From Sphaeroforma arctica JP610 (taxonomy: Eukaryota): a stretch of 41,292 bases of DNA. Position 1 is the stretch's first letter. The number at the start of each line of letters is the position of its first letter. The stretch covers positions 1 to 41,292 of the forward strand of contig NW_014039750.1 in NCBI RefSeq assembly GCF_001186125.1, in the 5' to 3' direction. Made by a program: the position numbers and the translations under genes. Under the pieces are notes generated by a model that worked only from the letters and a program-made list of their open reading frames with translations, searched no databases and was not told where the DNA came from. Shown here piece by piece: positions 10,473 to 38,759 of this stretch.

Positions 10473-11232
10473 TGTAATAGCCGGACCTCCAAATTAGACT
10501 CTATGTTATAAACGTACTCTTAAGCAGTACGTAAATTATAAATGTACTCTTGTTAGTATGAGGAACTTAGGTTTCCTAAATGGTTTTTAATGGTTTTATT
10601 AGTTTATCCCTTTTCCATTTTACATATCAGATATTTGGACGAGGCCATTAAAAGGCCCCAGTAAAATACCAAACATAAGAGTTGGTCTAGATCTATTAAT
10701 AGAACTATATTTAATTTCCAACTCTATGTATGTCTGAATACTTCGGTAGCGAGATGGCTCAATCGAATATAGGTTTCTAGGGACTATTTACGTTACCTAG
10801 TTGATCCACCGATCAGCCAACCAGATATACCTGTCTGATGAAGGCTAAGTCGGAAGTTCTTGATAAGGGGCAAGTTATTGGTTAAGACAAAAACTAAGGA
10901 CATCAAGAGTATTATTTTCTTCTTTTTTTTCTTTCTTTTTCTAAAGATAGGATTTTATGAGTCTCTCAGATTCGCCCTAACGAAACATGCCATAGTTTCT
11001 AATAGAGCGACAACGAAACACTAATAAAATCCCTTCGGCGGAAACAGTACTGAGAGGAATATATATAGGCAATGTCTCAGCCTCACAATCCCTCAGAGTA
11101 TTGCTGTTTTCATGAGGCATACCTAACTTTACTAAAAGTCTCATTTCGTTTATTTACTTTGATATTTTCACGATATTTGAATTTACCTACGCGTTTATTT
11201 ACTCTAAGGCGTTAATATCGCCGTAATAGACA
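10473..11232 (+). repeat. LTR-like repeat family D, copy 1 (right end approximate)
   Basis: Begins TGTAATAGCCGG; reverse-complement match to 11489-12548 and 22858-23603. Confidence 0.75.
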
Positions 11233-11488: not shown

Positions 11489-12548
11489 TGTAAGATTCGG
11501 TCTAACAAAGGCGATACTAATGCCTTAGAATAAATAAATGCGTAGGTAAATTCTATATATCGTGTAAATATCGATATAAATAAACGAAATGGGACGTTTA
11601 ATAAAGTTAGGTTTGCCTCGTGAAAACAACAATACTCTGAGGGATTGTGAGGCTGAGACATTGCCTATATATAATCCTCTCAGTACTGTTTCCGCCGAAG
11701 GGATTTTATTTAGTGTTTCGTTGTCGCTCTATTCTGGGGCGAATCCGAGTGACTCATAAAATCCTATCTTTAGAAAAAAGAAACAAAAAATAAAAATACT
11801 CTTGACGTCTTCAGTTATTGTCTTAACCAATAACTTGCCACTAACCCATTCCGCGGCACTACACGGCGCAGATCCGATCCGTACCACAAAGGTGGGTACT
11901 CTACTTATTAGGTCAGCAAGCAAATATATGGAACATTCGATAGTAACAGTGTTTTGTCAACACCGGCCCGAATTGACTCAGCACATATCTTCCATTGTCG
12001 ACTCACTTGGCCCAAGCTTCAAACGGGAATTTACTGACCACTTCTTCTCATACAGCGACTATGAGAGCCATACCATATGTTCATACATTGTATCATACAT
12101 ACTTGCCATTTTTGAAATAAATAATATTATCCCTATCAAGAATTACCGACTTAGCCTTCATCAGACTGGCACATCTGGTTGGCTTATCCGAGGATCAACT
12201 AGGTAACGTTAACAGTCCCTAGAAACCTATCGCTACCGAAGTATTCAGATATAAACAAAATTGAAAAGTAAATAAAGCTCTATTAATAGAACTAGACCAA
12301 CTCTTTTATGTTTGGTATTTTACTGAGGCCTTTTAATGGCCTCATCCAAAAATCTGATAAGTTAAAAGGAAAAGGTTTAATTAATAAATCCATTAAAACC
12401 CATTTTAGGAAACTTAAGTTCCTCGTGCTATTAAGAGTACATTTAGGAAACTGAAGTTCCTCATACTATTAAGAGTACGCTTATAATTTGCGTACTGCTT
12501 AAGAGTACGTTTATACATAGAGTCTAATGTGGAGGCCCGGCTTATACA
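11489..12548 (-). repeat. LTR-like repeat family D, copy 2, with a ~290-bp internal insertion
   Basis: TG..CA ends; flanks AGCA/ATCA (possible decayed 4-bp TSD); homologous to the other D copies. Confidence 0.75.
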
Positions 12549-12699
12549 ATCATAAGTGCCCAGCTGAGGGAATCTCCTCAGAGAGCAACATGTATCCATG
12601 TGTCTATAAGTAGGCATTGGACGAGCTTGTTGAAAACGCGGTGGACGTTCTCAGCTTTGCCGTTTAATTGGGGTGTGTAAAGGGGGGAAGGGTGGGGGG

Positions 12700-13860
12700 G
12701 GAACACCAAGGGACGACCAGCCTCTCTCTCCAAACAGACGTAGTCCCACGGGCGTGCGTGCAAACGTCATGTATGACCGCGTTGCCAACCTCTCAGGCCC
12801 TTCCAGTTACACCTACCGCGGGCAGGCCCTCGATTGGAGTCATGTCCACCATATCGTCGAAGCTGTACATGAGGTGTACATGCACGCTGGCGCGACAAAA
12901 GTAGAACGGGCCGTGAACTTTCTATACGGCTGGTCTAAACTCAGAGATGTTGTCCGAGCCACCGTCAAATGATGCTTTATCTGCCAAGCGTTCGCCAGCA
13001 GTCCATCTCAGGAGTTGGGTCTCCTGCAGCAGCCTGACAGGTCGCAGGTTCCCTTCGACCATATGCACGCCAATTTTGCGGACTTTCCGGGGCTCCTGAT
13101 GGAGTCGGCATTATTCTCCTCGCAGTGTGCAAGACGACTGGCATGGCCTTCTTCCGGCCAGTCCCTGCCAAGTCCAGGCAACTATGCGTTGACTTCGTGT
13201 CAGAACATATCTTCCCTTGGGGCATCCCCTCAGAATTTACGGCGGACCGTGGTTCTGTATTCACCATTGATGTATTGGATGCCTTTTGCGCGAATGAGGC
13301 TATCTACTTACACCTCACTACAGTTAATCATCACCAAGGCAATGGACGCGCGGAAGTTCTGATTAAAGTCGTGAAGGCCTAGGTATACAAGTCAGCGATA
13401 CCCGCCGATCAGACGTCCTGGGTGCGCCTGGTGCACGCCTTTTCCCAGTCGTATGACGCCTTAGTATCCTCTGTCACTGGGGAGGCTCCATATACGAAGG
13501 CTACAACACGCCCTTACCATGGGCCCCAGGCTCCGCTTCTCGAAGAGCGCACGGCATTGATCCTGTCGTCGAAAGCAGGGGCGTTGGACACTGTTGCCCT
13601 TGACCTCAGCGAGGCCATGGTCAGCCGTGCTCAAGTTATACAGAAGGTCGCGGCTGACAAGCAATGATTGGACGTCCCATCCTTTTTCGTTGGTGCTCAG
13701 GTTGTGCGCCTTCTCCATATCAAGGTCCCGGGTTGCCCAGCATGGGCAGGACCGTTGGAAGTCACCCTGGCCGACGAGCACGCTCGTCACCGTGCACGAT
13801 CTCGCAACTAGCAAGGAATTCCTCATGCACCGTACGCACCTCAAGAAATACTATCTCAGC
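12700..13860 (+). pseudogene. GC-rich Ty3/Gypsy integrase remnant (third family)
   Basis: VHEVYMHAG..CFICQ zinc finger; PFDHMHANF; WGIPSEFTADRGSVF; HHQGNGRAE; TGEAPY; WAGP; several stops and frameshifts. Confidence 0.85.
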
Positions 13861-16800
13861 ATTGCCTCGGGCACAACCGTTGCGGTGCGACCGAAAGGGG
13901 TCTATGAGCAGTGGCTGTTCCGCCAATCGCCCTTCGCATCTGCCCCAGAGGACGAACAACGTCGTCTCTTCTACCTCCTCCGGTTGTCCCCTGCTGGCAA
14001 GGCCTGGCGCAATCGAGTGAACTCCCCCTTTTCGTTCTTCCTCGATCACTGGGCTGCCACTAATCCCCCCCCCCCCCCGACCCGTACTACGACCTCCACC
14101 GACCGTACCGTTACGTTCGTCCGTACGTAACGTACGTCGTCCGTCGACCGACGACCTATTGTCGGCCGTACGTCGTCTACTACTANNNNNNNNNNNNNNN
14201 NNNNNCTGGCGAGGACCGTCGGCGGCCGAACTACGTACGGTGGAACGTACCCCCCTTTTTCCCCGTTTTCCGTTTCCCTTCCGTACGTCACCTACGGGCG
14301 TGCCACCTAATACCCCCCNCCCCCCCCCCGGGAATTCAAGCTCACCGCCAACGTTGTTGCCGCCTTAAAGGCTGCCTGGCCAGCCATTATTGCGGCCAGT
14401 CGTCTATCCAATGTCAAGAGTGCCATTGAGATGGCTTTTTCGTCTACTAAGCGTGCAACTAGGCTGGCCGAATGGCAGCAGTCTATGCACTCGCCTTTGT
14501 CCTTCTCCGACCTCCCAGCGGACCGCCACGTAGCTGGCTGGTGCCTCTCAACAATGTCTAATCTCCCGTCTGCCTTGTCTGTACTTTACTGCCTGTACAC
14601 ATTTGTGGCTATGGTCTGTTCACAGTCTTCCTTGAGTCTTGCATCTTCCATCGCAATGTCACACTTCTTTGCTCGGCCCGAGCATACTCAGTTGCATCGG
14701 TTGCCTGCCCTGGGTTGTGTCCGTTGCCTGCCTTGCTCACTTCATCTGGGGGGCGTACGCATTTGTCGCATCACGTGCATGTACTGTTCACTATACGTAT
14801 GTGTGTTCTTATTTGTGCTTATATATGTTCTTCTCCCTTTGCTCATCTACAGTTGTGTCGCGTACGGTGTTGTTTGCCTTCACGCCTTCCCAACTAATTC
14901 CATCTTCGATCACGCATCCATATTGGCCGTTGTCGTACGTATTATCATCGCAGCATCACGTTGCTCGTACCTGCTGTCTTCTCACCGCCGCTGACGTGTT
15001 AATACTTACTTTCCACGTCGTCGGCACTCTGTACACCGCCTTCGCTGTCGGTTGTCGGTTGCGGCTTCACTACCTATCCTAGTTCCTAAGCTACACTGAT
15101 TTTGCGCACGGATATTGTCTCCGTTGCGCTCTTATTGTTTGTTATTCCTATATTTTAAAAATTGCCGACACGGCAGTCTCATTTGTTATGCGTCGGCCCC
15201 GTTTGGCAATTGGGGCGTGTAATAAATTATAGGGCTAACTCTAGGGTTCTGCCAGAACCGCAGTGGGTTACCCTAGGGTTGATGAACTAGGGTTACCCAT
15301 GGGTGAACACACGAGGGTTCAGAGAACTGCTAAAGAGTAAGTACCGGCTGAGTCCCAGATACTTAACTCCAGCACAGTTTGGGTGGCTCTTCCTTTTGGT
15401 TAACCTTAAGAGTAGCCACCAAACTTGCTGACAATTTTAGAGGAACCATAGATTTAGTTTATGCGACTTACAATTGATTTATACTAAATAACAGAAGTAC
15501 TCTACTACGCTCATCGGAGTAAGTCTTGACCTGTGCTCTCGGTTAATCTCAATTTGGTTTAGGAAAACGCATCTCAACGGTGGCTCTCAACCGAGTCTTT
15601 GGTCCTTATCCCTCTTGTGTGTGGGCAGAGCATGCTTCAAGGTGAAAAAGTGGGAGTGTCCTTTGGTGTCAGTGAGACTTGGCTAAGTCCCCCGCCTCGT
15701 GCGCTGCCTGTTGCTTCCTGATCGTTCATCAATGCCGGTTGCTGTTAAATTCTTCGGCCTGGATTGTCTTCCCTTGCGTCGTTTCCGCTGTCTGTATATC
15801 GTGAGAATATCTGGATCTGCGATTTCTGATTCATGTGTCCAGGGGCGCTCTCCATCTGTATATTACAGTGGATAGTCCTGGGTTCCACCACCTCTTGTGG
15901 ATTCTCTGTGGTCAAGTATCGAAAAGAATTGAGTCACTTCTGATGGCTGGACTTGAGTTGGTAGTGAATTCTTCGAACTCGCTAGCTTTTTTGACTATAC
16001 CAATTAGCTCACATTGGCCGAATTGGGAAATTCGGGGGTTTTAGTTTCATCAAGGTTACGGACAAAATACCCGTTGCCCTCTTTGCTTGCTATCTTGTAT
16101 GGTCCTCCGTATGGTGCTGTCATTTTATTCGGTTCACCTAGATAACATATATATATATATATGAACCATCACAATGTCCCCTTCTTGGAAGTGTACATAT
16201 TTCTCTTGGTATTTTCGATCAAATGCTGCGTGCATTTTTTCTTGATATCGTGCCACATTGGTGTCTAGTTGTGGTCGTATGGACTCTTTTAGATTCTTCA
16301 GTTGTGTTTCCCATGGCATTGCTGTACCTGGTGCACTGACTGTTGTGTTATAGTCGGTGAGTAGGTTTTGTCGTCGGCCATAGTACACAGTGAACCCTGG
16401 TGATTTGTGTCTGCATGAGGAACGGAGGTTGTGGCCTGGACAAATGAAAGGCGTGAGCACCAGTTGCCTGGATTTTGTTCAACAAGTTTCCGTAGTAGTG
16501 GAATGAGGCCTCTATGTGAGCGCTCATTTGCTCCCATTACTTTGGGTTGGTACGGTCTGGACACTAAGTGTTGTCACGATGCCTGCTCAATGATTTTTGA
16601 GAGTATGTCATTCACATATTCTGTGCCTTGATCCGTCTGTATGACTTGAGAAAACCCATGTTCACATATGATTGGAACTAGTGTTCGTACAACAGTGGCT
16701 GCCGATTTGTCCATCATAGGTCTTAGTATAGCATATGACGAATGCACATCGAGCCATACCCGAACGTATGTGTTGCCTCTATTCGAGTCTATCAAGGGAC

Positions 16801-17128
16801 CAATGGTGTCTACTTGTATCATGTCGTCTGGAAATGCGGCATTTATTGATTGTAAAGGGTGGAATCCCTTCTTGTGAATTTTGTTCTTGAGACATGGTAC
16901 ACAGCCCTCAATATATAGGTTGACATGTTCCTTTTTTGGCCGGACCATGTGTGACCATCTAGTGTGAGTTTGTTCACTGTTTCTTTGATAGTGTAGTGAC
17001 CCACTGCGTGATATGGTGCTATTAGTGTGGCTCTGTCCTCATACGTGACTGAGTCTAGCTCTGCTGACTAGTCCGCGATGTGTATAGTTTTTGGTCAAAG
17101 TATGGAGACTTTGTGCCTTTTTTGGCTA

Positions 17129-17345
17129 CTAATGTGACCCCCCTGGTGTTGTGCCACAAGCTGTTGTGCCGTTCCTTAAGAACGTGTTGTTTGTGTTCTT
17201 GACTATCATCGGATCTTGTTCAAGTAGTGACAAGAATTTGGGGAACCACGTTGCGTTTGGGTAGTAGGGAACGCATATTGTAATGCTTGTGGCTTCCTCT
17301 ATGACTTTGTCTAACACGTCTGGTATTAGTTCATTCGATGTTTTG
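17129..17345 (-). pseudogene. C-terminal half of the MTase-like domain in element B
   Basis: LIPDVLDKVIEEATSITICVPYYPNATWFPKFLSLLEQDPMIV..TF..GT.A..TP aligns by eye with element A LIPQLLNFVHIQDATITLCCPLRHSEKWLPQLISMIQCEPIYV..TF..GT.A..TPW; lies between RNase H and integrase. Confidence 0.75.
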
Positions 17346-19299
17346 ATGTTGAATGTATCCGTGTAATCGTGACAATCTGTCAGCAACTCCATTATCTTTG
17401 CATGGCACGTGTATGATAGTGAAGTGATGATGGAAAGTTTTCGCTATCCATTTTGCTAGCATGGGATGCATTGTTTGCTGATTGTTCATCTGGCATAACG
17501 TTTTGTGATCTGTCCACAATGTTATATCGCCTCCTGTGATATATTCTGAAAAGTGTTCCAGACTGTATACTAGTGCTAGCAACTCTTTAGTATTTGTCCC
17601 ATGTCTCTGTTGTGCTGGGTTGAGACCTTTTGAGAAATAGAGTATATCTCTTCTGACTCCATCTACAATTTGGAACAGACATCCTCCTATACCATAGTCA
17701 CTTGCGTTGTTCATGATCTGAAACGGTACTTTATCTACTGGGACGCCAAAGTTGCTGAGCATGCAATGACACCTTCGAGTTCTTCCCATTTCTTGATGAG
17801 AAATGAGAAAGATTGACTAAATTTCGACTCATTTCCCTTTCATGAGATTGCGGAAGTGTTTCGTTATGTGTGCAAACTGAGGTATGTGGTCTCGCATATA
17901 ATTTGCTAGACCGATTGCTCGATGTAAGTCACGTTTGGTTCTTGGCAATGGCCAGTCAATCATGCGTTTCTGTTTCTCTGGGTCTGTTTTGAGCCCTTTG
18001 GTTGTTATTTTGACGCCTAATATATTGACTGTCTTGACTGCAAACGCACCCTTGTTGTGATTTAGCCTGAAGTTGGCTGCGTTAAGTCGGTTGATGATTT
18101 CGCGTACTGTTTGTCTATGTTCTTCTCCTGTCATACTGGCGATTTTAATGTCAATGAGGAGGTTGGCCATCACTCGTTCGAATTGTGCTGTTATCGAATG
18201 CAGTCCAAATGGAGCTGATTTGAATGAGTGTTAGGCTCCTCTCCATGAAAATGTAAAGAAGATATTTTCATGTACTTTAAAGTGGTGGAAGCCTCCTGTT
18301 AAGTCTAATTTGGAAAAGAATTGTGCACCTTGTAGGTTGTGGAGTACTTCTTTTATTTTTGGTAGTACATATTTGTCTTATTCATGTTGATAATTTATTT
18401 CTCTTAACTCTAAACATGTGCGTACCTTCTCTAGTATTATTTTGACGCCTAGTATATTGACTGTCTTGACTGCAAATGCACCCTTGTTGTGATTTAGCCT
18501 GAAGTTGGCTGCGATAAGTCGTTTGATGACTTCGCGTACTGTTTCAAGTTCCCCTGTGGATAGTAATGGTAGATTCACTTGTGTGGATGTTGATCTTTTT
18601 TATATGTGGCCATCTTTGACCAATTTCTGAATATTTTCATCCGCTTGTGGTATGTATTTGTGTGGAGCAAAATTCACTTTAGCATGACGAATGTTCATGG
18701 CTTTGACCTCCTGACTTGGTATCTCCACCACACATTCTGGTAGATTGCAGTGTACATCTGGTGGGATCTGACCATTTTGTTCTAACAAGTCTGAAAGTGA
18801 TTCTTTGAATCCTTCCTGTTCATGTTCGGGGCCTTCTTCATGTGGTGTGAGAAGTGATTCCCTTTTAGCATCTGTTGGTATTAGTGGGTTGATTATCCCT
18901 GCTAAGTATATGCCTAAGTATGGTAGAATGTCCATACCTAATAGAACTGGTGATTTCTTGTCTGGGAGGTCAAGTACCTCAAAGCAGTTTGACGTTTTTC
19001 TACCGCCTTAATTTATATCACATACTTCTGTGGAACCTGTGCGTTGTACTCTTGCATCTGATTGTGCTAGTTGTATGTATCCAGGTTGTGCTTTTACAGA
19101 CAAGTATAGTTCAGTTACTACACTTCGATCCATATAATAGCGTTGTGCTCCTGAATCTACTAGTGCATTGTATGTGGTGCCATTGATTTGTATGTCTATG
19201 TGCAATCTTTACTCTCGTGGATTCGGAAGTAAAGAAACGGGTGTGTAAGCAATATTATTTGCATTTATTAACAACGTTTCTTCATCAGTGTGTGCGTTC

Positions 19300-20733
19300 A
19301 CAAAGTCTACCATGTTTATCATGTTAGCCTCCGACCACCAAGCTTTCCATAAATCTTCATCCATGTCTTTCACCTTATTGCCATTTGTAATGGCCAACCG
19401 GTCGATATGGACGAGTTGGTTTTGTTGCGCTGCTCAAGATACTACCGTTAAACGGTTTATTTCGCCTTTGTTGGGGCACTTGCTGAACGCATGCGGTGAA
19501 GGCTTTATACCACAGTGTGGGCAAGGCCGTGGTTCTCGCGGTGCTGGGGTGTCCGTTGTTCTCCTGGTTGACCTCCACCTCTTGGTAGGCCACCCCTTCT
19601 TGGTGGTCCTCCCTCTCTGGATGGACCCCCTGGAGGTATGTCCAGTCTTGGGCTCGCGGCTCGCGGCTCAGGGACGGTTGCGTTTCTCGCTCGCTTGTTG
19701 TCACACTTGCGATTAGCTTGTATTATGGTTGCCTGTCTGATCATGTCTTCAGTGAGTTCATAAAATACCTTCTCTGAGATGTCAGACAAGTGTCCACTAC
19801 TACCATCTGGTTTCGTCCGAGCTTTGATCAGTTTGGCCGTTTCCGCTTGCATGATGCCTTGAAGAATTGCCAATTGATAGACTCTCTCAGTGCCTTTGTA
19901 ATGCTTCTCTAACTCAAACATTGTGCGACGCAACCGTGCTACCCGTACTTCAACATTCATACGAGTGTCATAGAAGTCGTTGAGCCACTTCTCTAGTAGA
20001 TAGTCTACTGGAGTACGACCCAGGTTGTCAATGATTAATATATTATAGTCTTCCACATCAGTGAAGTCTTTCCAAAGCTGTTTGGTACTACGTATATTAT
20101 TGAGTGCAGTGCGCGATACCTCTGTCTCTGTCTGTCTGAGTAGCTCTTGCACTAGTGATAGGTACTGTACCGATGGCATGTTTGTGCTCGCGAACAAATC
20201 TTTGGCTACAGATACAAACTCAATTGTATCACGACAGTCAGCCATGCTGACATATTTGCTTGTTGGCCACTTAAATTGCTCACTCATCTGGAGTAGTTTG
20301 TCCATTTCTGGTTCTGAGATTTTGTCCCCTTCGTGAGGTCTAATTAAAGTTAACTCGCTCATAAAGCCACTGATCGCAATGCACTCATCGTGATCACTTT
20401 TATCACAGTTCTTCATAGCTTTATTGTATAGCTCTGACAACCACTGGTCTATTACTGGTATTAATCTATTGGGTTGTTGGTCATGAACTGCTTTGCGGAG
20501 TTTGTGGAGTGCTCTTATGTCAATGGGGTCGTCCGCTGTTTGTGCATACAACCTACTAGTATATCTACGGTGTAGAAGTTGCTCTCATAGAGGGTCTTGT
20601 CCAAGACTATGTTGTACTTACTCATCGCTGGATCCAATGGAGCTCTTGCTGGTGTGGACTCATCATCCATGCGCACCCCTCCATTCCCATTGTGTGAGGT
20701 AGATGTGCGTGAGGATGCTTGAGAAACTGACAT
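19300..20733 (-). pseudogene. gag: gag of element B (ORFs 20515-20733 and 19505-20551 plus a frameshifted zinc knuckle)
   Basis: 348-aa ORF upstream of the protease, followed by a Gly/Arg/Pro-rich stretch and a C-X2-C-X6-H-X4-C knuckle in the next frame. Confidence 0.75.
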
Positions 20734-21162
20734 TGTGGGTGCTGTTTCTAGTCGTGTTCTGGTTGTACGACTTGTACTGCCTATTGTATGTGTTCTGCTT
20801 GAGCTTACTTGTGTGCGTAGGCTCCGTCGTGCTGCACGTCTTTATTGATATGGAGCAGAAGTCATTGACTGTTCTGTGTATTGAGTATGACGCAATTTTG
20901 TTAGAGTTTATCTATTCTTCCTTGACCTGAAATGTGTCACTCCTTTGTAAATATACCCTTTGGGTCACATGTGGTTAATTACCTGTATTGGTGTGCCCTC
21001 TGTGGTGTCTGGCGACTGTGTTGACTGTGGGTCCTTGTGCTTGATTGGGTTGAACTTGGCTGTCTTTTGATATCTGGGTTTATTTAGAGACTTTTTGGTT
21101 TGAGGAGATAAACTTTGGTTTATGTGGTTCCAGTGGTATAAACCTGGGTTGTCTTGGTAACC

Positions 21163-21205
21163 TTAGGGTTTTAGGGTTTTAGGGTTTTTAGGGTTTAGGG
21201 TTTAG
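21163..21205 (+). repeat. Telomere-like (T)nAGGG repeat, 5 G-tracts
   Basis: TTAGGGTTTTAGGGTTTTAGGGTTTTTAGGGTTTAGGGTTTAG. Confidence 0.8.
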
Positions 21206-22857: not shown

Positions 22858-23603
22858 TGTGTTGGTCGGTTTTAACACCCCAACATATAAATCAGAAAAG
22901 AAGTTATCACAATGGCACTTTCTTTAAATGTCTTTTGGTAAAGTTAGGTAAGCCTCGTGAAAACAGCAATACTCTGAGGGATTGTGAGGCTGAGACATTG
23001 CCTATATATAATCCTCTCAGTACTGTTTTTACGCCGAAGGGATTCTATTTAATGTTTCGTTGTCGCTCTAATAGAAACTATGGTAGAAACTATGGTATGT
23101 TTCGTTGGGGTGAATCCGAGAGACTCATAAAATCCTATCTTTAGAAAAAAGAAAAAAGAAAAAATACTCTTGATGTCCATAGTTATTGCATTAACCAATA
23201 ACTTGCCACTTATCAAAAATTACCGACTTAGCCTTCATCAAACTGGCACATCTGGTTGGCTGAACGGAGGATAAACTAAGCAACGCTATAAGTCCTTAGA
23301 AACCTATGTTCGGATGAGCCATCTCGCTACCGAAGTATTCAGATAGAAATAGATTTGGAAAGTAAATATAGTTCTATTAATAGAACTAGACCAAATCTTA
23401 TGTTTGGTATTTTACTGGGGCCTTTTAATGGCCTTGCCCAAATATCTGATATGTAAAATGGAAAAGGTATTAATTAATAAAACCGTTAAAAACCATTTAG
23501 GAAACTTAAGTTCCTTGTACTATTAAGGGTACGTTTTTAGTTTACGTACTGCTTAAGAGTACGTTTATAACATAGAGTCTAATGTGGAGGCCCGGCTATT
23601 ACA
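22858..23603 (-). repeat. LTR-like repeat family D, copy 3, inserted upstream of element B gag
   Basis: Ends GGAGGCCCGGCTATTACA; colinear with 11600-12548 apart from the insertion in copy 2; left end approximate. Confidence 0.75.
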
Positions 23604-24604: not shown

Positions 24605-24830
24605 CTAAGGTCGAACTCGGAAAGTAATCTTGTGCCTATTCTCTTCGCGGATGAAGCACTGATTAAACCCGTTGGCATTGTCGGTGGTAGTCACCCTTTG
24701 CACATTGCTGATCTGTATGCACAGCTCGTTTTCAGACGGCTTGTTCGCATTATCTGGCAGGGACTACTTATTGAAACCATCGTACACTTGGCACGTCCGT
24801 CTATCTTTGTAGCACACTGGGGACAATCTG
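24605..24830 (-). pseudogene. Gypsy-type reverse transcriptase fragment (not in the ORF track)
   Basis: Minus-strand translation RTCQVYDGFNK*SLPDNANKPSENELCIQISNVQRVTTTD/PTGFNQCFIREENRHKITF matches the RT blocks R.C.DY..LN..P..EL and D..GF.Q.....R.KT.F. Confidence 0.6.
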
Positions 24831-25469: not shown

Positions 25470-27100
25470 AAATAGTCTCATTAGCATCAAGACATTGTCG
25501 TAAACGTTGTCGTATGTCATCTGGCTCGGGCAAGTCTGGGGCCATTCGAAAATTTATCGGTTCCAATAGTTCATTTATAACATTACGATTAATCTCCGGG
25601 AATGAAGATACTAATCCGGTTAAGCCTAATCCCAGCTCTCCCATAACACCTACACCCAGTATATATCAATGATATCCGGTAAGTCCATAAGCTCAAACGT
25701 ACAACCCTCAGTAGTAGCTGTCCCGTATTGGACCTTTGTTGCGCGTGTCTTACCCAAGCGTGGAGTCCGAAGAGCTTTGTCCGCCAAATAAATGTAGCTA
25801 TCATTAGCCGGTGGTGTGACGGATAACTGTTCCTTATCTGCGGATGCCTGAGTGGTGACTGAACAGTTTGCCCCCGGGCCAATTAGGGTACCCATGTCAT
25901 GGCCGTTCACTTGTAAAGTAACATATACACGGTTGTCGGCAGGAAATAATTTATCTTTTACTGCAAAACTTCTCGTTGCCGTACGACCCAATGATATGCA
26001 CATACTCACGTCAGGCACCCCAGCATTTTATTCCGAATCTGTTCCAACTTTCCAACCTTCTGGTGCTTGCTCTACTCATCGTTACTCAGCACATACGACT
26101 CGTAAACCACGTCATGAATATGCATCACTTCAGTCTCCCCCGTCTCAGCTGGTGGTTGATCATGCAATTGATCACCGTCCACTAAGTTAACGCGAGGCCG
26201 AAAATTGTTACCTGCCCCCTGTATCGCACGCGTCGATATGCCCGTTGCCGATGGACGTTGTGCAGTAGCCCCACCATGTTGTGCACGGCTACCCGTGTTG
26301 GTTTGGTAAACATGAACGTGATCGCGAGTTCCCCGGAATCTGTTGTGGGCGCGTGAACATTTCGTCAATGTTCACACGAAATACATCACGCATCTTTTCA
26401 GATGAGTATTCCCGCCAATGTGGATGCATACAAAGAATATCACGGTAGTACGCACCACCCGCAGCTTGAAGTATAAGGTTAAGCATCCCATGGTTGCAGT
26501 ATACCTGTAGAGGTGTGTTCTCATATTGTTACATTTTCATGAATTCTACTCTGCGTTCAAATTTACGAATCTGAGTATTAAGAGGTACTGTCGGTTTCAG
26601 CTTCATACACGCTAACACCTGTCTGTAAGTATTATCCATATCCTCCAAGTCCTGTTCTTGTGTGTGTATAATATAGACACTGGCTCTTCCCAATCAAATC
26701 TCTTGCTGTAGAGCTCGGTGTAGACCCAATTGCATATGAATCGCTTCTAGTTTGTGAAATCGCGTTGTATTCTAATGCCAGTCTAAGATATATGCATGCA
26801 ATTTTATCTTCTGCGGGTTACACAAATAATAGCTGCATTGTAGATTAGGCGGCCATTCCTTCAGCGTTCGTTTGTCAACCGTCACTGAGCATGTTTTAAG
26901 AGTCTCATTAAGTGCACGTATTAAACCCTGTATTGCGTGTGCATCTTCTATGTGTCCCTCTGCTTCTGCGTGCATCATTCGTTGAGTCAGTTAAAAAACT
27001 TGCATCTTCATCTCTGCTGCTGTAGATGCAGTGATGCTAGGCTCTGTCGGTTCTGATAGCTTCAGCGTTTCATCGCCTATGGGTCTTCTAGGTAGCGATC
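25470..27100 (-). pseudogene. Degenerate Gypsy gag/protease remnant (element F)
   Basis: VYVTLQVNGHDMGTLIGPGANCSV..IYLADK protease (25650-26018) and GELGLGLTGL, resembling the PR region of elements A and B; upstream broken gag-like ORFs. Confidence 0.7.
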
Positions 27101-29573: not shown

Positions 29574-30468
29574 TGTAAAAATAGCGGGTTCCTAATAGTA
29601 GTTGCACAGTAAACGTATAAAATAAACGTACAAACGTATTAGCGTTTATTCTTATAATACTGGAATACGTTTAGCGTATATAGTACATGAACAAGGATTG
29701 AGATATTCAAGATTCTGAACAAGTGATAGTATTCAGTAGAGTATGGGACTCTACTGTGGACAATTAGGTAGTTTTCTAAATATAGATTGGTTTTTTTCCA
29801 CTGAAATTAGAATTGTACATAATATAGGAATAATACAAATTTGACACCTGAAAATGACACTTTGGGAATCTCTAATTAACGGAAGTACCATGAGAGAGAG
29901 TCTCAGGCGTGAAATGGTTGTTGGTACAAGCCTATGGTATAATTCGATAATAATCTCAGAGCAAGATAATCCACTGAGAAAAGGACAGGATCAGAGTTGT
30001 TAGAATTTAGGACAACCTGGTTTTGATTCCTCCTAGCCAGCCAACTAGATGTGCCCGTCTATGCCTTAAATGGGATGGGGTATAGGTGCAGATATATACT
30101 GCGCCAGCTTGGTGTTTTGATTTTATTTTTTATTTTTCTTAAGTTGGACTTAGATATATTTTATTGGTTATTTTGAGTAGATAATTGTTTCGAGGCGTGA
30201 AATGTAAAATATGCGTCCAATGAAATGATATCTAGTCTTAGTAACTAAAGCATAAATAAATCTAGACCGAAGTAGTGAGTGATTAGAGCGGAGCATATAG
30301 ACAATAGTCTCAGTCCAAAATCCCCTAATCTTTTGCTCACTACCAAGGGCTGAAGCTAAACTTATTTTTAACATTTTGCATTTCAGCGTTTTAACGTATT
30401 GTCTTATTAACGTAAACGTATTGGTATCGTATAGCGTATAGTCAGCCTAGAGGAGACCGACTTTTACA
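29574..30468 (+). repeat. 5' LTR of element A
   Basis: TG..CA termini; colinear with 37359-38261 apart from substitutions, small indels and a 22-bp deletion between GATGGGG microhomologies near 30080. Confidence 0.95.
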
Positions 30469-30500
30469 TATTTTTAAGTTTATAATACGCTATCGATATT

Positions 30501-33043
30501 ATGACGAAAGGAAACAATAAGGCAGCGAAGTAGCTAAGGCTGCAAAAGTAAATTGGTTTACTGGAGGCGATGAAAAGAGAAAACACCCCCGGCATCGTCA
30601 GTGGACTCTGACGTAACTGAGATCACACCGAGACAACCAGTACCAACTCTGACTAAACAAAAACGTAAGAAGTTGACCGACTCGGGTATAGGTGCATCCG
30701 GAGGTAATGGGACTACGGAGCGACAGTAGCCACCTGCGAAGAAGGCGAGATCTCGAAAGGGAAAAGCAGAGAAAACGCATTCCTCGGACAACTCAACTTC
30801 AGAGGAAGTCCGACATGTACTTGAATCAGATGTACCATCTCCACCGGTGGATACGCGCAAACCACGTAGGCGAGATCCTTCTTATCACATGATAGCAAGG
30901 GATAGGAGAGCCTTCCTGAAGGACTACCAACCAATGGTACATGATTTGAGACCTACCAAGCAGCGGAGAAAAAAGCAAGCCGCAGCGAAGGATCAAAGTT
31001 AGGATGAATCAGAGGAGAGTCAACGAGAGTTGATCCGACAGCGGGCCAACAGGGCATGGTTGTTTCGAAATACGTATGGAACGTTCTTTCCGGACGTATT
31101 GAAGACCAAACCAGATGGTACCATCTCACCGAGGTATGTTATGAATGCAGCGGTAAGAAAGTTTGGGTACGATTTGTTTAGGGATAATAAATATTACAAT
31201 CGGCTAAAATTAATGAAAACTGACGACGGTAAGCAAGCACGCAAACTTTAGTTTCAAAAGATACTGCCGGAGGTATTCGGAACTAGGGGAGATGGAAGTT
31301 TTGCATACTTAATTTGGTACGCAATTCGGGATCTTCTAGTAGATCTTCTTGACTTGATATCAAACCATTTGGCACTTTATCAAGGCATATTGGCGTTCGA
31401 GATGTTGTCAGACAATGGAGAGGCCAGCAGAATCAGATCTTCATCACCCGAAACTCAAACCTCTCCTGGATTGGACACAACAGCAATGTCGCGAATGGCA
31501 TCTGAATAGGAGCCTAATCCAAATCTATTACCGGAAGGAAATCCACAGAGTGCCCCAGAGGTACTTCAGAAGGACAAACCGACCGAAGAGCCTAAACCTG
31601 ATCAGGTGAAAGCTAGAAAATTCTTTTCGTCATCGGAAGACAGTTCGCCCCCAGCGGCTATCCCAACGACGACAAAAGGTGCTGTCCCATCCGAAGCGTT
31701 CATTAACATTGAACAGATCGATGGATCAAAGGATGAGGCAGATAACTGACTGCATGGTCAAATGCAATCAGAAAAGAAGGGATCAGATCACTCTAGTAGT
31801 GATATGAAAATTGCTGAATTCACTGTTCAAATGAACAAGGCCGAGGCAGCTTCACTCGAGGCGATGGATCTAGGTAGGATTGATGCCGCTAGTCTTTATA
31901 TGACAATGGCTACGCATCTCCAGACTAAGATTGATTCAGAACTAAGAGTGTTTCAGACCGAGAAGGCTGTGGAAGGCAAGAAGTTTGTAAAGGACATAGG
32001 TAAACTACCAATGACATACAGATCTGATCGAAAAGACCGAAAGGATCCAATCGATACTAGCAGTCTGGCGTTGTTATCTAGGTCTTGGAAAGAGTTTGGA
32101 CAGATTATGCTTACAGCCAATCTACGGAAGAACCTATGGTTCGAAGCAGCGCAGCAGAGCTTTAAGCCGTCCTTACAAGTATAACAAGTTAGAGAAGGCG
32201 AAACAAGCGATCACTAAGCTGAAAAAGTGGAAAGAGCAGAGTGAGATGATCGTCCACTTATTTTCGACGGACCCTCGACCGGAATTGCTTGTATCGGTCA
32301 TGATACCACCGGAAGAAGGGACGCCGGTGTCCCACTACTTATCAGAGTTGGACACACACATGTCACGGGCTCAAACTCAGGAGATGTCACCTGATAAGCT
32401 ATCCATGTGTGTACTATGGGTACAGACAATCTTTTGGTCAAACCTACATAGGAGAGATCAAGAGATTCTGTACGCCGATATGCATCAATCTTACCCGGAC
32501 AAGATACGAGAGATCTCCATCGAGAGACCTACCTACGGTATAATGAAGCTAGCGGACTTAACCTGGGCTGAATTTTACTCGAGAGCGGATCAGACGTTTA
32601 CCAAACGTCCTAGTTCCGTGGTCAAAGTCACTAATGCTCAGAAGAAGGTCAGCAGCAATCTTACCGGAGGTTCAGGCAATGGTCGAGACTCTCAATTTAC
32701 TAATGGAGGTCAAAAGGTACACAAAGGGGGTGACAAGGGTGGCAATAAGAACAAAAATACAAATAGTTCTGACGGCAACAAGATCAATGTCATCCCTAAG
32801 GGTAACCAGACCTACAGAAATGGACCGCCGGTAGGCAACCCTAAGCCCAGGCATAGGGAGATCAAGAACTGTAGTGAGTCTGATTGCAATTGGCGAATGA
32901 CCCAACATGAGCCGAATGGCAGATGGAATGGAAGGCACGCAGAAAAGTGTAAGCACTTTATCGAGAAGTGTGCCGACTGTACCGGGACTGGAGGTTACCA
33001 CAAGCATACATGCAAGGTGAAACCAAAAGTTGAAGTCAAGTGA
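30501..33043 (+). pseudogene. gag: gag-like ORF1 of element A (fragmented; longest pieces 31762-32184 and 32096-33043)
   Basis: Lies between the 5' LTR and the protease; C-terminal Cys/His cluster including the knuckle-like CADCTGTGGYHKHTC; upstream part broken by stops and frameshifts, so the start is approximate. Confidence 0.7.
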
Positions 33044-36000
33044 CAGACATACCGGGTCTTGTCACTAAGACAAAAGGACGCACCTCAAGACGAGCGTGTA
33101 ATCCTTGGCATACGAGTTAACGGACATGAAATAAAAGCGTTGTTAGATCCGGGCTCGCAAATTTCATGTATATCCTCGTGATTCTGTAAAATGACAGACG
33201 TAACTCGTAAGTCAGAGCCAACTATGTTGAAACTAGCTGATGAAAGAGAAATCACTTGCAGAGAAATGGTAATCGATCTTAGGTTTACATTGACAGACCA
33301 ACGTACTACAGTTACTAAGGCAGTCATATGCAACACTTCACCAGACTATGATAACACAGTAGGTATGGGTGATTTATTGTCATTAGGTATCACAAATACA
33401 GGCTTACCTACTAACATTGAACCACAGAAGGATCAGTCGGACGACAATTTGTTGAAACCGGTATATAAACCTTCGAAGACTGTGAAGGAGATGATACCTC
33501 GCTTTACAGAGAAACTCAAGGACTTAATTTTCGAGAATGACAAGATTCGGATCACGGACTGGGCTAAGTTCAAATTCAATAACGGATACGTTAGTCTAGA
33601 CCTGACGAGAGTCGATTTCTCGAAGCTGAAGTATCCTACACGTAACTATGTTGCATGGCGTCATGAGCAGGTCGTACGAGAACAGGTTAAAGCCTGGTTA
33701 GATGATGGAGTGATCGCAGTCAACTATGAGCCGACTACTGTCAACCTAGCGCTTTTAGCCGTTGACCAATTCAACTCTGACGGGACACTGAAGAAAGTTC
33801 GGGTGTGTTTGGATATGAGCCCAATTAACGCTTTGATACCGACACACAATTTTCACTTACCAAGGATAAACGAACTACTCAGGCGCATAGAGGGAGTTAA
33901 GATATTCTCCACTATCGACCTGAAGCAGGGCTACCACCAGATGAAGATCTACAAACCACATCGGAAGTATTTCACCTTTACCTGGGAGGGTCAGCAGTAT
34001 TCGTTCAAGGGTGCCCCCTTTGGGTTACACATGTTACCTGCGTTTTTCCAACAAACTATGCAAGATTTGTGAAAGGACACGGACAATGTACAAGTATACA
34101 TTGATGACATTGTGGTATTCACCAAAACCAAAGAGGAGCACGACAAGGTTGTGCGCGAAGTCCTAGACAGACTCAACAAACACAACTTTAAAGTCAACAG
34201 TAAGAAATGTCACTTCGGTGTTAACGAGATTCAGCTGTTGGGTTACCGAGTATCCGGGGATGGAATCATGATCGATCCCGGGAAGGTCGAACACTTGCTA
34301 GACTGGAGAACCCCTACCATGGGTAAGGATGTCAACAGCATGTGCGGATTCGGCAACTTTTTGTCTGACGGAGTACCACACCTGGCAAGCTATTTAAAGC
34401 CCTTTGGACATTTGAGATGGCATAAAGGCAAACTAGGCGCACTGTGGACCAAAGACTGTGATGACGCATTTAAGCAGCTCAAATTAGTGGTTCAACAGGC
34501 ACCGGTAGTCCAGCCACCAAAGGATGGTATTCCATTCATGGTAACAACAGACGCATCCGACATGGCACTCGGCGGCGTGCTGTATCAAATGATTGATGGG
34601 AAACCGAGATATGTACAGTTCTTTAGCAGAGCTATGAATTCGTCTCAGATCAATTACCCAACCGTGCAACAAGAGCTTTTGGCTATTGATACTGCACTCA
34701 CTCATTTTAAGGATTATCTATATGGCACACACTTTAATGTGCTATGTGATCAAAAGTCATTGCAACACCTAAAGGACATGAAACCTAACTCACAGTTAGT
34801 CAGTCGGTGGCATGACACGATCGCAAAAAAAAATCCTTTCAGCATAACACACATACCGGGTATTCACAATCACTTACCCGACATATTGTCTCGCTTCGTA
34901 CTAGACTTTAATAAGATGATTAGGGAGTTACTAGCTACGGATTGGATGGTCAATCCTAGGTGGTTTAAGATCGCTGACAACATACATGGACCACATACCA
35001 TAGATATGTTTGCCGCTCATCATAATGCACAACGGCCGAGGTACCGGACACTGGAACATCCGAAAGGAGATGGATTCCAGATTGACCTGTCTCTCGAGAA
35101 TGCCTGGGCAAATCCTCCATGGTTATTAATACCACAGTTGTTAAATTTTGTACATATTCAAGATGCTACCATCACGTTGTGTTGTCCCCTAAGACACTCA
35201 GAAAAATGGCTACCACAGTTGATCTCAATGATACAATGTGAGCCGATCTATGTGGATAGAAAGGTAGATACTTTTTTCTACCAGGGTACCCGTGCAGTCC
35301 AGAAGACGCCTTGGCGACATACTATTATATGTCGAATAGGCCCAGTTGGACCAACCAAGTGGACACCATCCGAGACTTTCAAACAGAAGGTTGAAGAATC
35401 CAAAATTCGACTCTTGAATCCTAAGTCTCAATCAGAGACTGGGACAACACAAGCACCTGCAGTATGTGTTACCGAGATACAGCCAAATTCAAAGGAGTCA
35501 AAGAGGAACGCATCACTAGTGAAAGCCTTCGGGAAACTGCATACCAAGCAGAAACTCGATTGCTTAAGCAATTGATGAAAGACTTTCCCGAGGTATATAA
35601 TCATGTGACCCAACTAATAGATAGATCAAACATTAGTCGGATTCACGATGTAGAAGCTTTAGGTGAGATTGGACAAGACGAGTCTTCGAGTTCAGGTGAT
35701 GACGCAGTGGAATCCTCACCTCCTGATTTCAATGTAACAAGTAGATCACAGGAGGCGATTCTGAAGTGGTTAAGACAAAATCATGCTCTTAAGCACATGG
35801 ATAAGGTTAGAACTGAAAAAGATTGCAAGAGGTACAGAATCGTACACCCGAACCTCAAGCAATATATATCTCAGGTGTATCACGAATGCAACAACTGCGA
35901 AGTTAACCAGATCAAGCGCTACGGATACGCACCTTTACGCAGCGTATCAGAAAACGAGCCGTGGCGCCGGGTTATCATTGATTTGGTTGAGCTACCCACG

Positions 36001-36990
36001 TCCGAACACACGAAGGATAAATATGTCTGTCACGTGTGTGATGTCGCATCAAGATATAATGTACTATATCCGCTGAAAGATTAATCGACACAAACTGTGG
36101 CTGAGTGCATATATAAGTGCTTCGCAGATTTCGGCTGGCCAGCTAATGTATGTTCCGGCAACGGTAGTGAGTTTACAGGAGATGTCATGACGACACTGTT
36201 ACTCGTTGCGGGATCATGCCATAAGATGGGTGTACCTTACAAGCCTCAGACACAATGTGCGAACGAGATACGACACAGAAAGATGGAGGAGTTCATGCGA
36301 GCAGCACTCCTTGATGAGGTTGACATGCAGCCGTACTCAATCAACTGGGTACAGACACAGATGAACGAATCCCATGATTCAGTCACTGGTACAACACCCG
36401 CTCACTATTTCCGGGGTCGTTATAGTGAATTACAGATCCCCTTCAACAAGGAGTCTCAAGATGATCATGTGTTACCATGTTTAGAGAAGATGCGTCGGAC
36501 CAGAGATGTGGTCTATCCTTGATTAAGGGATATGAAGGACATCGCTCTCAAGAAGAGACAAAAGCGATGGAATGATACCAAGAAAATAGTCGAGTTAGAG
36601 GTAGGCGATATAGTCAACATTATGGCTCGCAACTCCAATACAACTGTGCTTACGGCTAAATATATTGGACCATTTATGATCTCTGTGGTCGATAAGAAAA
36701 GCGGAACGTATGAAGTTAACAACGTTGACGGCTCTAATGCCTTAAATATCGGACCACATCGAATCCCTACGACAGAAATCATCCTTCGTCGCACACGTGA
36801 AGCTACTACACTTCTTATGTCTTACGAGTTAAAAAAGATTCTAGGAAAGTACAAACATGAGGATATGACATATTATACTACGGAGTTCGCCGATGGAGCA
36901 CAGTATGATCTTCCACCATCAGCATTTGATGATCCGGATGTACTAAAGGCCTTTAATAAGAAGTTTCGCAAACGCTTACATAAAAAATAA
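33044..36990 (+). pseudogene. pol: pol of element A: aspartic protease, RT, RNase H, MTase-like domain, integrase, chromodomain-like tail
   Basis: PR ALLDPGSQ (~33140-33160); RT VRVCLDM, IDLKQGYHQ, APFGL, YIDD (~34096); RH TTDASD, QQELLAI, PDILSR; IN H..H..CNNC, IIDLVE, GNGSEF, NEIRH, YIGPF. In-frame stops at 33179, 34070, 36082, 36520 and a frameshift near 35464-35575. Confidence 0.95.
34940..35343 (+). CDS. DNA N6-adenine methyltransferase-like domain (phage Dam / DIRS1 MT type), in frame within pol (ORF 34112-35575)
   Basis: DWMVNPRWF..IADNIHGPHTIDMFAAHHNAQRPRY..DGFQIDLSLENAWANPPWLLIPQLL..TITLCCP..KWLPQL matches the DIRS1 MT pattern DW..F..GP..IDxFA..N..DAF..Y(A/N)xPP..LI..W; NPPW at 35111-35122. 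Confidence 0.85.
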
Positions 36991-37344
36991 GGCTGATGCA
37001 GAAGCAATCTTACCATCGAATAAGCGAACCGACGTGGTTTAGATCTATCCACAGATATCACACATTCCCAGCTTTAAACAGCATGGAATATATGTACCTC
37101 CAAAAGGCATTAAGAAACGTCCTATCCACCATCGGGGACCACAAGGAATAAAGCCCAAACGCAATAGAGTAACCGAGTAGCTTATAACGACTAATTATAC
37201 TTTGTCTACGAGAATATAACATAAGCATTGAGGCCGTTATATGATCGAAACCCGTTTCCTTTCTTTTCGCTTGTACAATTCATGTGAGCTTTTTGAGTCT
37301 ATGTGCTAATACCACATATAAGCCAACATCGGAATTTTCAAGCT

Positions 37345-37355
37345 GAAGGGGGGGG
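37345..37355 (+). other. Polypurine tract of element A
   Basis: GAAGGGGGGGG ending 3 nt before the 3' LTR TG. Confidence 0.85.
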
Positions 37356-37358
37356 CTA

Positions 37359-38261
37359 TGTAAAAATAGCGGGTTCCTAATAGTAGTTGCTCAGTTTACG
37401 TATATTATAAGCGTATTAACGTATTAGCGTATATACCTATAAAACTGGAATACGTTTAACGGATTGGACATGAACAAGGATTGAGATACTCAAGATTCTG
37501 AACATATGATAGTACTCAGTAGAGTATGGGACTTTAATGTGGACAATTATGTGGTTTTCCAAATCTAGATTGGTTTTGTTCCACTGAAATTAGAATTGTA
37601 CATAATATAGGAATGATACAAAGCTGACACCTGAAAATGACACTTTGGGAATCTCTAATTAACGGGAGTACCATGAGGGTCTCAGGCATGCAATGGTTGT
37701 TGGTACAAACCTATGGTATAATTCGATAATAATCTAAGAGCACGATAGTCCAATGAGAAAAGGACAGGATCAGAGTTGTTAGAATTTAGGACTACCTGGC
37801 TTTGATTCCTCCTAGCCAGCCAAGTAGATGTGCCCGTCTATGCCTTAAATGGGATGGGGAGCTAGGCACCAAGTGATGGGGTATAGGTGCAGTTATATAC
37901 TGCACCAGCTTGATGTTTTGATTTTATTTTTGATTTTTCTTAAGTTGGACTTAGAGATATTTTATTGTTTATTTTGAGTAGATAATTGTTTCGAGGCGTG
38001 AAATGTAAAATATGCGTCCAATGAAATGATATCTAGTCTTAGTAACTAAAACATAAATAAATCTAGACCGAAGTAGTGAGTGATTAGAGCGGAGCATATA
38101 GACAATAGTCTCAGTCTAAAATCCCCTAATCTTTTGCTCACTACCAAGGGCTGAAGCTAATCTTATTTTTACACTTTGCATTTTAGCGGTTTAAGGTATT
38201 GTCTTATTAACGTAAACGTCTTGGTATCGTATAGTCAGCCTAAAAGAGACCAACGTTTACA
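37359..38261 (+). repeat. 3' LTR of element A
   Basis: Starts TGTAAAAATAGCGGG just after the polypurine tract, ends GTTTACA; matches the 5' LTR. Confidence 0.95.
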
Positions 38262-38759
38262 TATATTTATATTTGCTAGTGTATTAACTTGACCTACATT
38301 TTTATGTCTATTTACAAATTAGACATGTGGTCATGAGCACTTAGTACTACTAGTGAAAATTCTTCAATAAAGAACAGCTAGAGGTACGTCCTGTGTGATC
38401 GAGAATATTAAGGGTCTTACCAAGAGGCAGTCCCGATTATTGTTACACAAGCTATCACTGCTAAAACCTAACTGACTTAAATTGTATCTTAGTTTATGCA
38501 ACATAGTTTAAATCATAGAAATACCCATCGAAGTTTACAGTTTCGTGCTGACAATTTTGCGTTCCACTGGGCTGATTTGCTATATCCCAGCTATACCGCT
38601 ATTAGGTAACTGGTCAGTTGGTGTCGTCTATTTTTGCGTTGGGTGTTGAAAAGCCCATTGCAGCTGCGATGTTGTTGCTACCTGTTGCTCTGCTCAAGAT
38701 TATCGACTTCTGATGCCGTCTGGACCGTTGTGTCATTAGTAGTGAACACAACAAATCAT

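What the first reader, a model, noticed from the sequence alone, without database searches (positions are those of the whole stretch)
17129..17345. A second, highly diverged Gypsy family has the same MTase module at the same position
Seen: element B has no evident nucleotide similarity to A, yet between its RNase H (ADRLSR) and integrase it encodes LIPDVLDKV..ITICVP..ATWFPKFLSLL..P..TF..GT..TP, matching the post-NPPW half of A's domain. The N-terminal half (DxFA to NPP) is missing; the minus-strand junction reads GAA TG|AACTAATACCA, compatible with a deletion between the two conserved Trp codons. Inference: the RH-MT-IN arrangement is old and was inherited across families, which argues for selection on it.
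Basis: partly seen in the sequence, partly recalled or inferred. Interest (0 to 1): 0.78.

Follow-up and report, generated by a model that had tools for sequence, protein, structure and literature searches.

The report
Broken retrotransposon with half-deleted methylase domain
A broken jumping-gene copy, likely from the single-celled animal relative Sphaeroforma, has lost half of an adenine-methylase-like domain that its intact relatives keep in the same place as a very distant second family nearby; this kind of element was described in a 2026 preprint, and what the domain methylates is untested.

Summary
Element B's 17332-17138 segment matches the C-terminal half of element A's Dam-like domain (0 of 10,000 shuffles reach the score). 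Two intact 1288-aa B-family polyproteins carry the whole domain (DLFA...NPPW) between RNase H and integrase. A and B fall in one supported clade in both the RT and the Dam tree, with Sphaeroforma and Abeoforma sequences, and Dam is as conserved as RT-RNase H: one old capture, then inheritance. This is the 'Ichthyosporean DAM-LTR lineage' of a May 2026 preprint, so the class and lineage are known. Additions: B and most of the clade carry a divergent chromodomain, which the preprint says is absent; the predicted fold is closest to RNA adenine methylases (PCIF1/CAPAM), so the substrate is open; two Copia-type polyproteins with the same domain turned up. Likely mechanism (untested): methylation of the element's own reverse-transcription product. 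Interest 0.3.

The parts
17138..17332 (-). Element B: C-terminal half of the Dam-like (DIRS/PCIF1-type) N6-adenine methyltransferase domain, residues 737-801 of intact relative P0006; a frameshift near 17137-17139 puts the last strand in another frame (to about 17085)
   Evidence: 77% identity to P0006 over 65 aa; frameshift seen (table 4)
17332..17333 (-). Deletion junction: about 85 codons lost (residues 652-736 of P0006: linker, DW, DLFA and NPPW motifs); one-base overlap
   Evidence: protein alignment; contigs of other copies end at 17332 from both sides with loose ends
17333..17360 (-). Surviving start of the RNase H-Dam linker; separate two-base loss at 17359/17360 shifts the frame and creates the stop that ends the RNase H ORF
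   Evidence: table 4
17361..17800 (-). Element B RNase H
   Evidence: Pfam RT_RNaseH E=5e-23; 79% identity to P0006
17829..19322 (-). Element B protease and reverse transcriptase, broken by stops, deletions and a 108-nt duplication (18005-18112 / 18437-18544)
   Evidence: 70-86% identity to P0006 in the main pieces
16427..17061 (-). Element B integrase (zinc finger and DDE core), frameshifted
   Evidence: Pfam rve E=7e-10
15773..15949 (-). Element B divergent chromodomain at the integrase C-terminus, one stop codon
   Evidence: E=1.3e-9 to a profile of clade tails that did not include this copy; that profile hits HP1 at E=8e-10
15687..15698 (-). Polypurine-tract-like run after the end of pol; no pair of LTRs found for B in the window
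   Evidence: sequence and blastn
19505..20584 (-). Open frame in the gag position of element B (no Pfam hit; assignment by position only)
34928..35353 (+). Element A: complete Dam-like domain (DMFA...NPPW) in frame after RNase H
   Evidence: Pfam Dam E=0.0019, below cutoff
29575..38269 (+). Element A, LTR to LTR (LTRs about 29575-30476 and 37360-38269), pol with stops and a frameshift
   Evidence: LTRs 829 of 888 aligned bases identical (89.5% by blastn with gaps)

Best explanation
Element B is a broken copy of a Ty3/Gypsy LTR retrotransposon that has lost, by an internal deletion, half of a Dam-like adenine-methyltransferase domain which intact relatives carry between RNase H and integrase; families A and B likely inherited the domain from one old capture, and in live copies it would likely methylate adenines in the element's own reverse-transcription product. 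Shown: the domain order PR-RT-RH-Dam-IN-chromodomain in intact relatives, the deletion, the shared clade, conserved motifs, a methyltransferase fold in the model. Inferred: the domain is made as part of Pol and packaged with it; having no separate target-recognition domain in its 140 residues, it relies on tethering to RT/RNase H or integrase to reach cDNA or the RNA:DNA hybrid; after integration the host AMT1 system would keep the mark and favour transcription (the preprint's model). Odds: identity and common descent about 0.9; this substrate about 0.45.
For: Alignment beats 10,000 of 10,000 shuffles. P0005/P0006: Pfam Dam 56 and 54 bits (cutoff 28.1) at 679-770 between RNase H and rve; P0007 likewise. 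Deletion mapped. RT-RNase H tree, 44 rows: 15-row clade 99/99 holding A, B and nine more, all with Dam; Dam tree, 75 rows: 23-row clade 99/96 holding the same 15 and the window remnant. Dam data do not reject the RT grouping (p-AU 0.45) and weakly reject B+DIRS-like (0.047) and A+DIRS-like (0.031). A-versus-B identity: RT 46-47%, RNase H 39-42%, Dam 37-50%, integrase core 28-31%. Named members: Sphaeroforma arctica SARC_05614, SARC_00333, SARC_09892 and Abeoforma whisleri Awhi_evm2s11263. Model pLDDT 95.6, best matches N6-adenine methyltransferases. Preprint reports more 6mA and more expression on DAM-LTRs in S. arctica and A. whisleri.
Against: No activity has been shown: the preprint's E. 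coli expression test was negative. The 50 best structural entries include no DNA methyltransferase; the top ones act on RNA. Iyer et al. judged DIRS1 copies likely inactive. Between P0005 and P0006 Dam is less conserved (80%) than RT (93%), RNase H (96%) or integrase (92%). RT and Dam distances correlate only modestly (rho 0.30, 130 of 9,999 permutations as high); the RT data reject one unstarred grouping of the Dam tree (p-AU 0.0001); the Dam bootstrap had not settled. Most clade members were found through Dam, so Dam-less members could be missed; the RT-led search reached only 4 clade members among 99 hits.
Confidence: 0.75

Rival explanations
1. Same element and history, but the domain works like PCIF1/CAPAM on RNA: it would N6-methylate the cap-adjacent or another exposed adenosine of the element's own RNA (or its primer), changing stability, translation, packaging or strand transfer.
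For: Best folds are PCIF1/CAPAM (Foldseek E=2e-4, TM 0.70; Z 10.9, rmsd 2.7-2.9 over 121-125 residues) and DIMT1/KsgA (Z 10.1, tied). Pfam PCIF1 matches 23 of 62 aligned relatives at E<=1, best 2.6e-5. Iyer et al. place DIRS1 methyltransferases in the PCIF1 clade. It would explain the negative test on E. coli DNA.
Against: Pfam Dam matches 60 of 62 and far better; a shared fold shows no substrate; phage-type Dam may simply have no solved structure (profile search of PDB sequences found none); the 140-residue domain is far smaller than the 470-490-residue PCIF1 chains; DAM-LTR insertions show more DNA 6mA.
Confidence: 0.2
2. The domain is a non-catalytic or weakly catalytic binding and spacer module that holds RNA or nucleic-acid intermediates and is kept for that.
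For: Negative heterologous assay; Iyer et al.'s reading for DIRS1 copies; P0002 has CPPW; faster change than RT within family B.
Against: NPP[W/F] kept in 20 of 22 and a DxF[A/S] pattern found in 19 of 22 clade rows over RT-scale distances (rows were found with a profile holding these motifs).
Confidence: 0.25
3. A and B got the domain separately (two captures from DIRS-like elements, or a later swap between the families).
For: DIRS elements already have RT-RH-MT order, so the position alone is weak evidence; the preprint counts at least four captures; the sister RT group mixes Dam-bearing and Dam-less rows; AU rejections are marginal.
Against: One clade in both trees; Dam is no more alike between A and B than RT is, unlike a recent swap.
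Confidence: 0.07
4. The missing half is an assembly error in this window, not a deletion in the genome.
For: The family is highly repeated (226-352 contigs laid per run on 1 kb); no listed contig meets the tool's 31-base rule for bridging the junction.
Against: One contig of run X4 matches 17303-17402 with no difference, across the junction and the two-base loss, with 30 bases on the short side; the copy has many other lesions.
Confidence: 0.06

Closest known systems
Ichthyosporean DAM-LTR lineage (Fernandez-Moreno et al., bioRxiv 10.64898/2026.05.21.726589; read parts 1-4 of 5 of the text, no figures, supplements closed)
   Same: Ty3/Gypsy pol with a DIRS-type Dam domain; found in Pirum, Abeoforma and Sphaeroforma arctica; Asn-Pro-Pro triplet; my clade holds named S. 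arctica and A. whisleri proteins.
   Different: The preprint says this lineage lacks chromodomains; B's family, the Abeoforma member and others have a divergent one. The main text does not describe two deeply split families in one genome and does not mention PCIF1 or Copia; its supplements may.
DIRS1-like tyrosine-recombinase retrotransposons (Piednoel et al. 2011, PMC3266345; passages)
   Same: RT-RNase H-MT order; homologous MT domain, function unknown.
   Different: B has aspartic protease, Gypsy-type RT and DDE integrase; its RT groups with Ty3/Gypsy, away from DIRS-like rows (100/100).
PCIF1/CAPAM cap-specific adenosine methyltransferase (PDB 6irw, 6is0; Iyer et al. 2016, PMC4738411, passages)
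   Same: Closest solved fold to the model; grouped in one clade with DIRS1 methyltransferases by Iyer et al..
   Different: 12-18% identity; 140 residues inside a retroelement polyprotein, no WW domain; substrate untested.
Chromoviruses with group II chromodomains (PMC3350952; passages)
   Same: Chromodomain at the integrase C-terminus; B's family lacks aromatic residues at the first and third cage positions, as group II does.
   Different: Group II was described from plants; the RT clade here does not branch with the fungal and plant Tf2-like rows in my tree, so this is a resemblance, not membership.

Membership tests
Ty3/Gypsy LTR retrotransposon | pol order protease-RT-RNase H-integrase | tested here: met
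Ty3/Gypsy LTR retrotransposon | RT groups with Ty3/Gypsy, not DIRS | tested here: met
   (P0005-P0007; the window's own broken RT was tied to them by 70-86% identity, not put in the tree)
Ty3/Gypsy LTR retrotransposon | Paired LTRs | tested here: inconclusive
   found for A; none found for this B copy; no DNA of intact B copies could be fetched
DAM-LTR, ichthyosporean lineage | Dam domain (PF05869) in the same polyprotein as RT and DDE integrase | tested here: met
   P0005, P0006, P0007 above Pfam cutoff; the window copy keeps only the C-terminal half
DAM-LTR, ichthyosporean lineage | Asn-Pro-Pro-aromatic catalytic motif | tested here: met
   NPPW at 733 in P0005/P0006; deleted in the window copy
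DAM-LTR, ichthyosporean lineage | Dam clade shared with Sphaeroforma, Abeoforma and Pirum elements | tested here: met
   S. arctica and A. whisleri named in the clade; no Pirum-labelled row was seen; only 10 of the hits were looked up for names
DAM-LTR, ichthyosporean lineage | No chromodomain (as described in the preprint) | tested here: not met
   below Pfam's cutoff, which likely explains the preprint's statement; read as a correction to the description, since the named Abeoforma member has it too
DAM-LTR, ichthyosporean lineage | Raised 6mA and expression of insertions | not testable with these tools
   no methylation data or raw RNA reads available
DIRS1-like element | Tyrosine recombinase instead of DDE integrase; DIRS-type RT | tested here: not met
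   DDE integrase in the same polyprotein; RT outside DIRS-like rows
PCIF1/CAPAM | Cap-adjacent adenosine methylation; WW domain | not testable with these tools
   fold match only; no WW hit in P0005/P0006

The most novel reading that the evidence does not exclude
The 'Dam' of these retrotransposons is a PCIF1-like RNA adenine methyltransferase that marks the element's own RNA inside the particle, kept since before the Sphaeroforma-Abeoforma split and paired with an overlooked, cage-less chromodomain, a writer-plus-reader design that has also spread to Copia elements.
Probability: 0.17. Interest if true: 0.72.

Novelty: new member of a known kind. Interest (0 to 1): 0.3.

Why it matters
The function of the retrotransposon MT/Dam domain has been an open question since DIRS elements were described, and the one test I read (E. 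coli genomic DNA) was negative. This finding does not answer it, but supplies intact B-family polyproteins with perfect motifs from a cultured organism's lineage, evidence of long retention, a reason to test RNA and hybrid substrates, and a correction (chromodomain present) that links the lineage to chromatin-guided integration. As a window finding it is a dead copy of a described class.

Tried and rejected
No RNA holder listed; no conclusion on expression. Contig depth was not used as copy number. Pfam gave no hit for the window's Dam remnant; a sequence profile found no solved Dam relative, and the wider alignment A2 mostly found RNase H because some rows carry it. The wide structural search and a model of the chromodomain could not be run. 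A profile of eight canonical retroelement chromodomains did not detect one in family A (three tails under 10 bits), so the chromodomain is shown for B and others, not for A. Rejected: chance alignment; deletion between two Trp codons; recent Dam swap between A and B; DIRS identity. Earlier-findings look-ups by sequence and place were empty. Rows left out of trees: RT tree used 44 rows (11 of the Dam-less Gypsy hits outside the sister group, 6 DIRS-like); Dam tree used 75 rows, dropping short or orphan hits. Literature searches showed no paper on Copia elements with Dam or on a chromodomain in this lineage; only open-access full text was searched, I saw listings only for most hits, and the preprint's supplements are closed.

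Full report
Setting. The window is repeat-rich eukaryotic DNA with two Ty3/Gypsy elements: A (+, about 29575-38269, LTRs 829 of 888 aligned bases identical) and B (-, pol about 19322-15686). The nearest named proteins to B's segment are Sphaeroforma arctica SARC_05614 (87%) and SARC_00333 (77%), so the host is likely S. arctica or a close ichthyosporean; this is an inference from homologues.

Observation. B's segment aligns with A's domain at E=6e-12, and 0 of 10,000 shuffles reach the score. It lies between RNase H and integrase. blastn finds no A-B match. The N-terminal half occurs nowhere in B in six frames.

The deletion. Two intact 1288-aa polyproteins, P0005 and P0006, match B's main pieces at about 70-87% and carry the whole domain, DLFA at 699 and NPPW at 733, Pfam Dam 56 and 54 bits. 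The window joins residue 651 to 737 in frame. Contigs from six public runs stop aligning at 17332 from both sides; the listed loose ends on one side read, by eye, into the NPPW region. One contig matches 17303-17402 without difference, with 30 bases on the short side of the junction, one short of the tool's bridging rule. The copy has many further stops and frameshifts and is dead.

Inheritance. An RT-RNase H search with P0005 gave 99 hits; 5 carry Dam and rank first to fifth. A Dam profile against 1.84 billion representatives gave 6,830 hits at E<=0.001, of which the best 150 were listed and classed with home-made RT and integrase profiles and, for 24 proteins, Pfam. In a 44-row RT tree, A, B and nine other Dam-bearing elements form one clade (99/99). 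In a 75-row Dam tree the same 15 rows, the window remnant and seven fragments form one clade (99/96; few columns, bootstrap not settled). Dam data accept the RT grouping (p-AU 0.45) and weakly reject B or A joined to DIRS-like rows (0.047, 0.031); RT data reject one unstarred Dam grouping. Across 11 full polyproteins Dam distances match RT-RNase H distances (median ratio 1.04; integrase 1.37), the RT-Dam correlation is modest (rho 0.30), and A-B distance (1.63) is like A-Abeoforma (1.56) (P0108 named). So the A/B split lies at the base of the lineage. NPP[W/F] is kept in 20 of 22 rows. Against: Dam is 80% identical between P0005 and P0006 where RT, RNase H and integrase are 92-96%; sampling was Dam-led; the sister RT group mixes four Dam-bearing and four Dam-less rows whose Dam domains fall outside the clade, so gains and losses deeper down are unresolved; no dN/dS was possible.

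Fold and mechanism. AlphaFold2 on a 62-row alignment gave pLDDT 95.6. Best PDB matches are PCIF1/CAPAM (E=2e-4, TM 0.70; Z 10.9, rmsd 2.7-2.9, 121-125 residues) and DIMT1/KsgA (Z 10.1), all RNA adenine methyltransferases; the second search only re-aligned Foldseek's top 1,000. Pfam Dam matches 60 of 62 rows, Pfam PCIF1 23 of 62 weakly. Iyer et al. (PMC4738411, passages) put DIRS1 methyltransferases in the PCIF1 clade and thought them inactive. I take as most likely (about 0.45) that the tethered domain methylates the element's cDNA or RNA:DNA hybrid and that host AMT1 keeps the mark, as the preprint proposes from raised 6mA and expression in S. arctica and A. whisleri; a non-catalytic role (0.25) and an RNA substrate (0.2) remain open. 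All of this step is inference; the preprint's E. coli assay was negative.

Chromodomain. Pfam gives sub-cutoff Chromo hits for P0005, P0007, P0009 and P0109. A profile of eight canonical retroelement chromodomains scores 9 of 16 clade tails at 10 bits or more, against 0 of 3,200 shuffles; the three family-A tails stay below. A profile of nine clade tails hits Drosophila HP1 at E=8e-10 and the window's 15949-15773 at E=1.3e-9; the Atlas's best three clusters for P0005 1200-1265 carry Chromo in 61%, 68% and 20% of members (scores 0.90-0.91). By eye, B's family lacks the first and third cage aromatics, like plant group II.

What is known. The preprint 10.64898/2026.05.21.726589 (parts 1-4 of 5 read; term searches; figures and supplements not seen) defines DAM-LTRs and an ichthyosporean lineage in Pirum, Abeoforma and S. 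arctica (97% support), said to lack chromodomains. DIRS1-like elements have RT-RH-MT (PMC3266345, passages). PMC6338049 (passages) speculates on antiviral roles for such methylases; I did not test that. Earlier notes of this scan on other genomes reach the same preprint; they are not independent support.

Verdict. Real, well supported, and a member of a described lineage. New details are the depth of the A/B split, the overlooked chromodomain, the PCIF1-like fold as a reason to test RNA, and, in passing, Copia-type polyproteins with the domain. Interest 0.3.

Noticed in passing
P0198 (1838 aa), P0244 (2098 aa), P0276; not in the window: Ty1/Copia-type polyproteins (Copia gag, zinc knuckle, Pol_BBD, integrase, RVT_2) with Pfam Dam above cutoff and NPPW intact, placed before the integrase, on different sides of Pol_BBD in the two. 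The preprint's main text has no 'Copia'; one literature search showed no report in its listing. Host unknown.
   Followed up: partly
P0118, P0143; not in the window: Polyproteins ordered protease - Exo_endo_phos (APE-like) endonuclease - Dam - RT - RNase H - integrase; five cluster members for P0118.
   Followed up: no
P0176, P0186; not in the window: dUTPase next to Dam (P0176); RNase H - Dam - weak Tudor-like domain (P0186).
   Followed up: no
window 15773-15949 (-); also P0108: Divergent chromodomain in a lineage described as lacking one.
   Followed up: yes
window 18005-18112 and 18437-18544: 108-nt duplication of an RT stretch sitting where an earlier part of B's RT is missing.
   Followed up: partly
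window about 21160-21205 (-) and 15200-15320 (-): Short runs of telomere-like AAACCCTA-type motifs on both sides of B's coding region (sequence).
   Followed up: no
window 12634-13850 (+); repeats 12134-12548 / 23211-23603 and 10473-11138: A third, decayed integrase with no Dam remnant detected, and 77-88% repeats in both orientations around B; B may be nested in another element.
   Followed up: partly
window 24608-24805 and 25674-25949 (-): RT and protease fragments of a further decayed Gypsy-like element.
   Followed up: no
window 27591-28035: Old partial copy of A's LTR, 73% identical.
   Followed up: no
window 4234-5424 (-): 396-codon open frame without a Pfam hit at E<=0.1.
   Followed up: no
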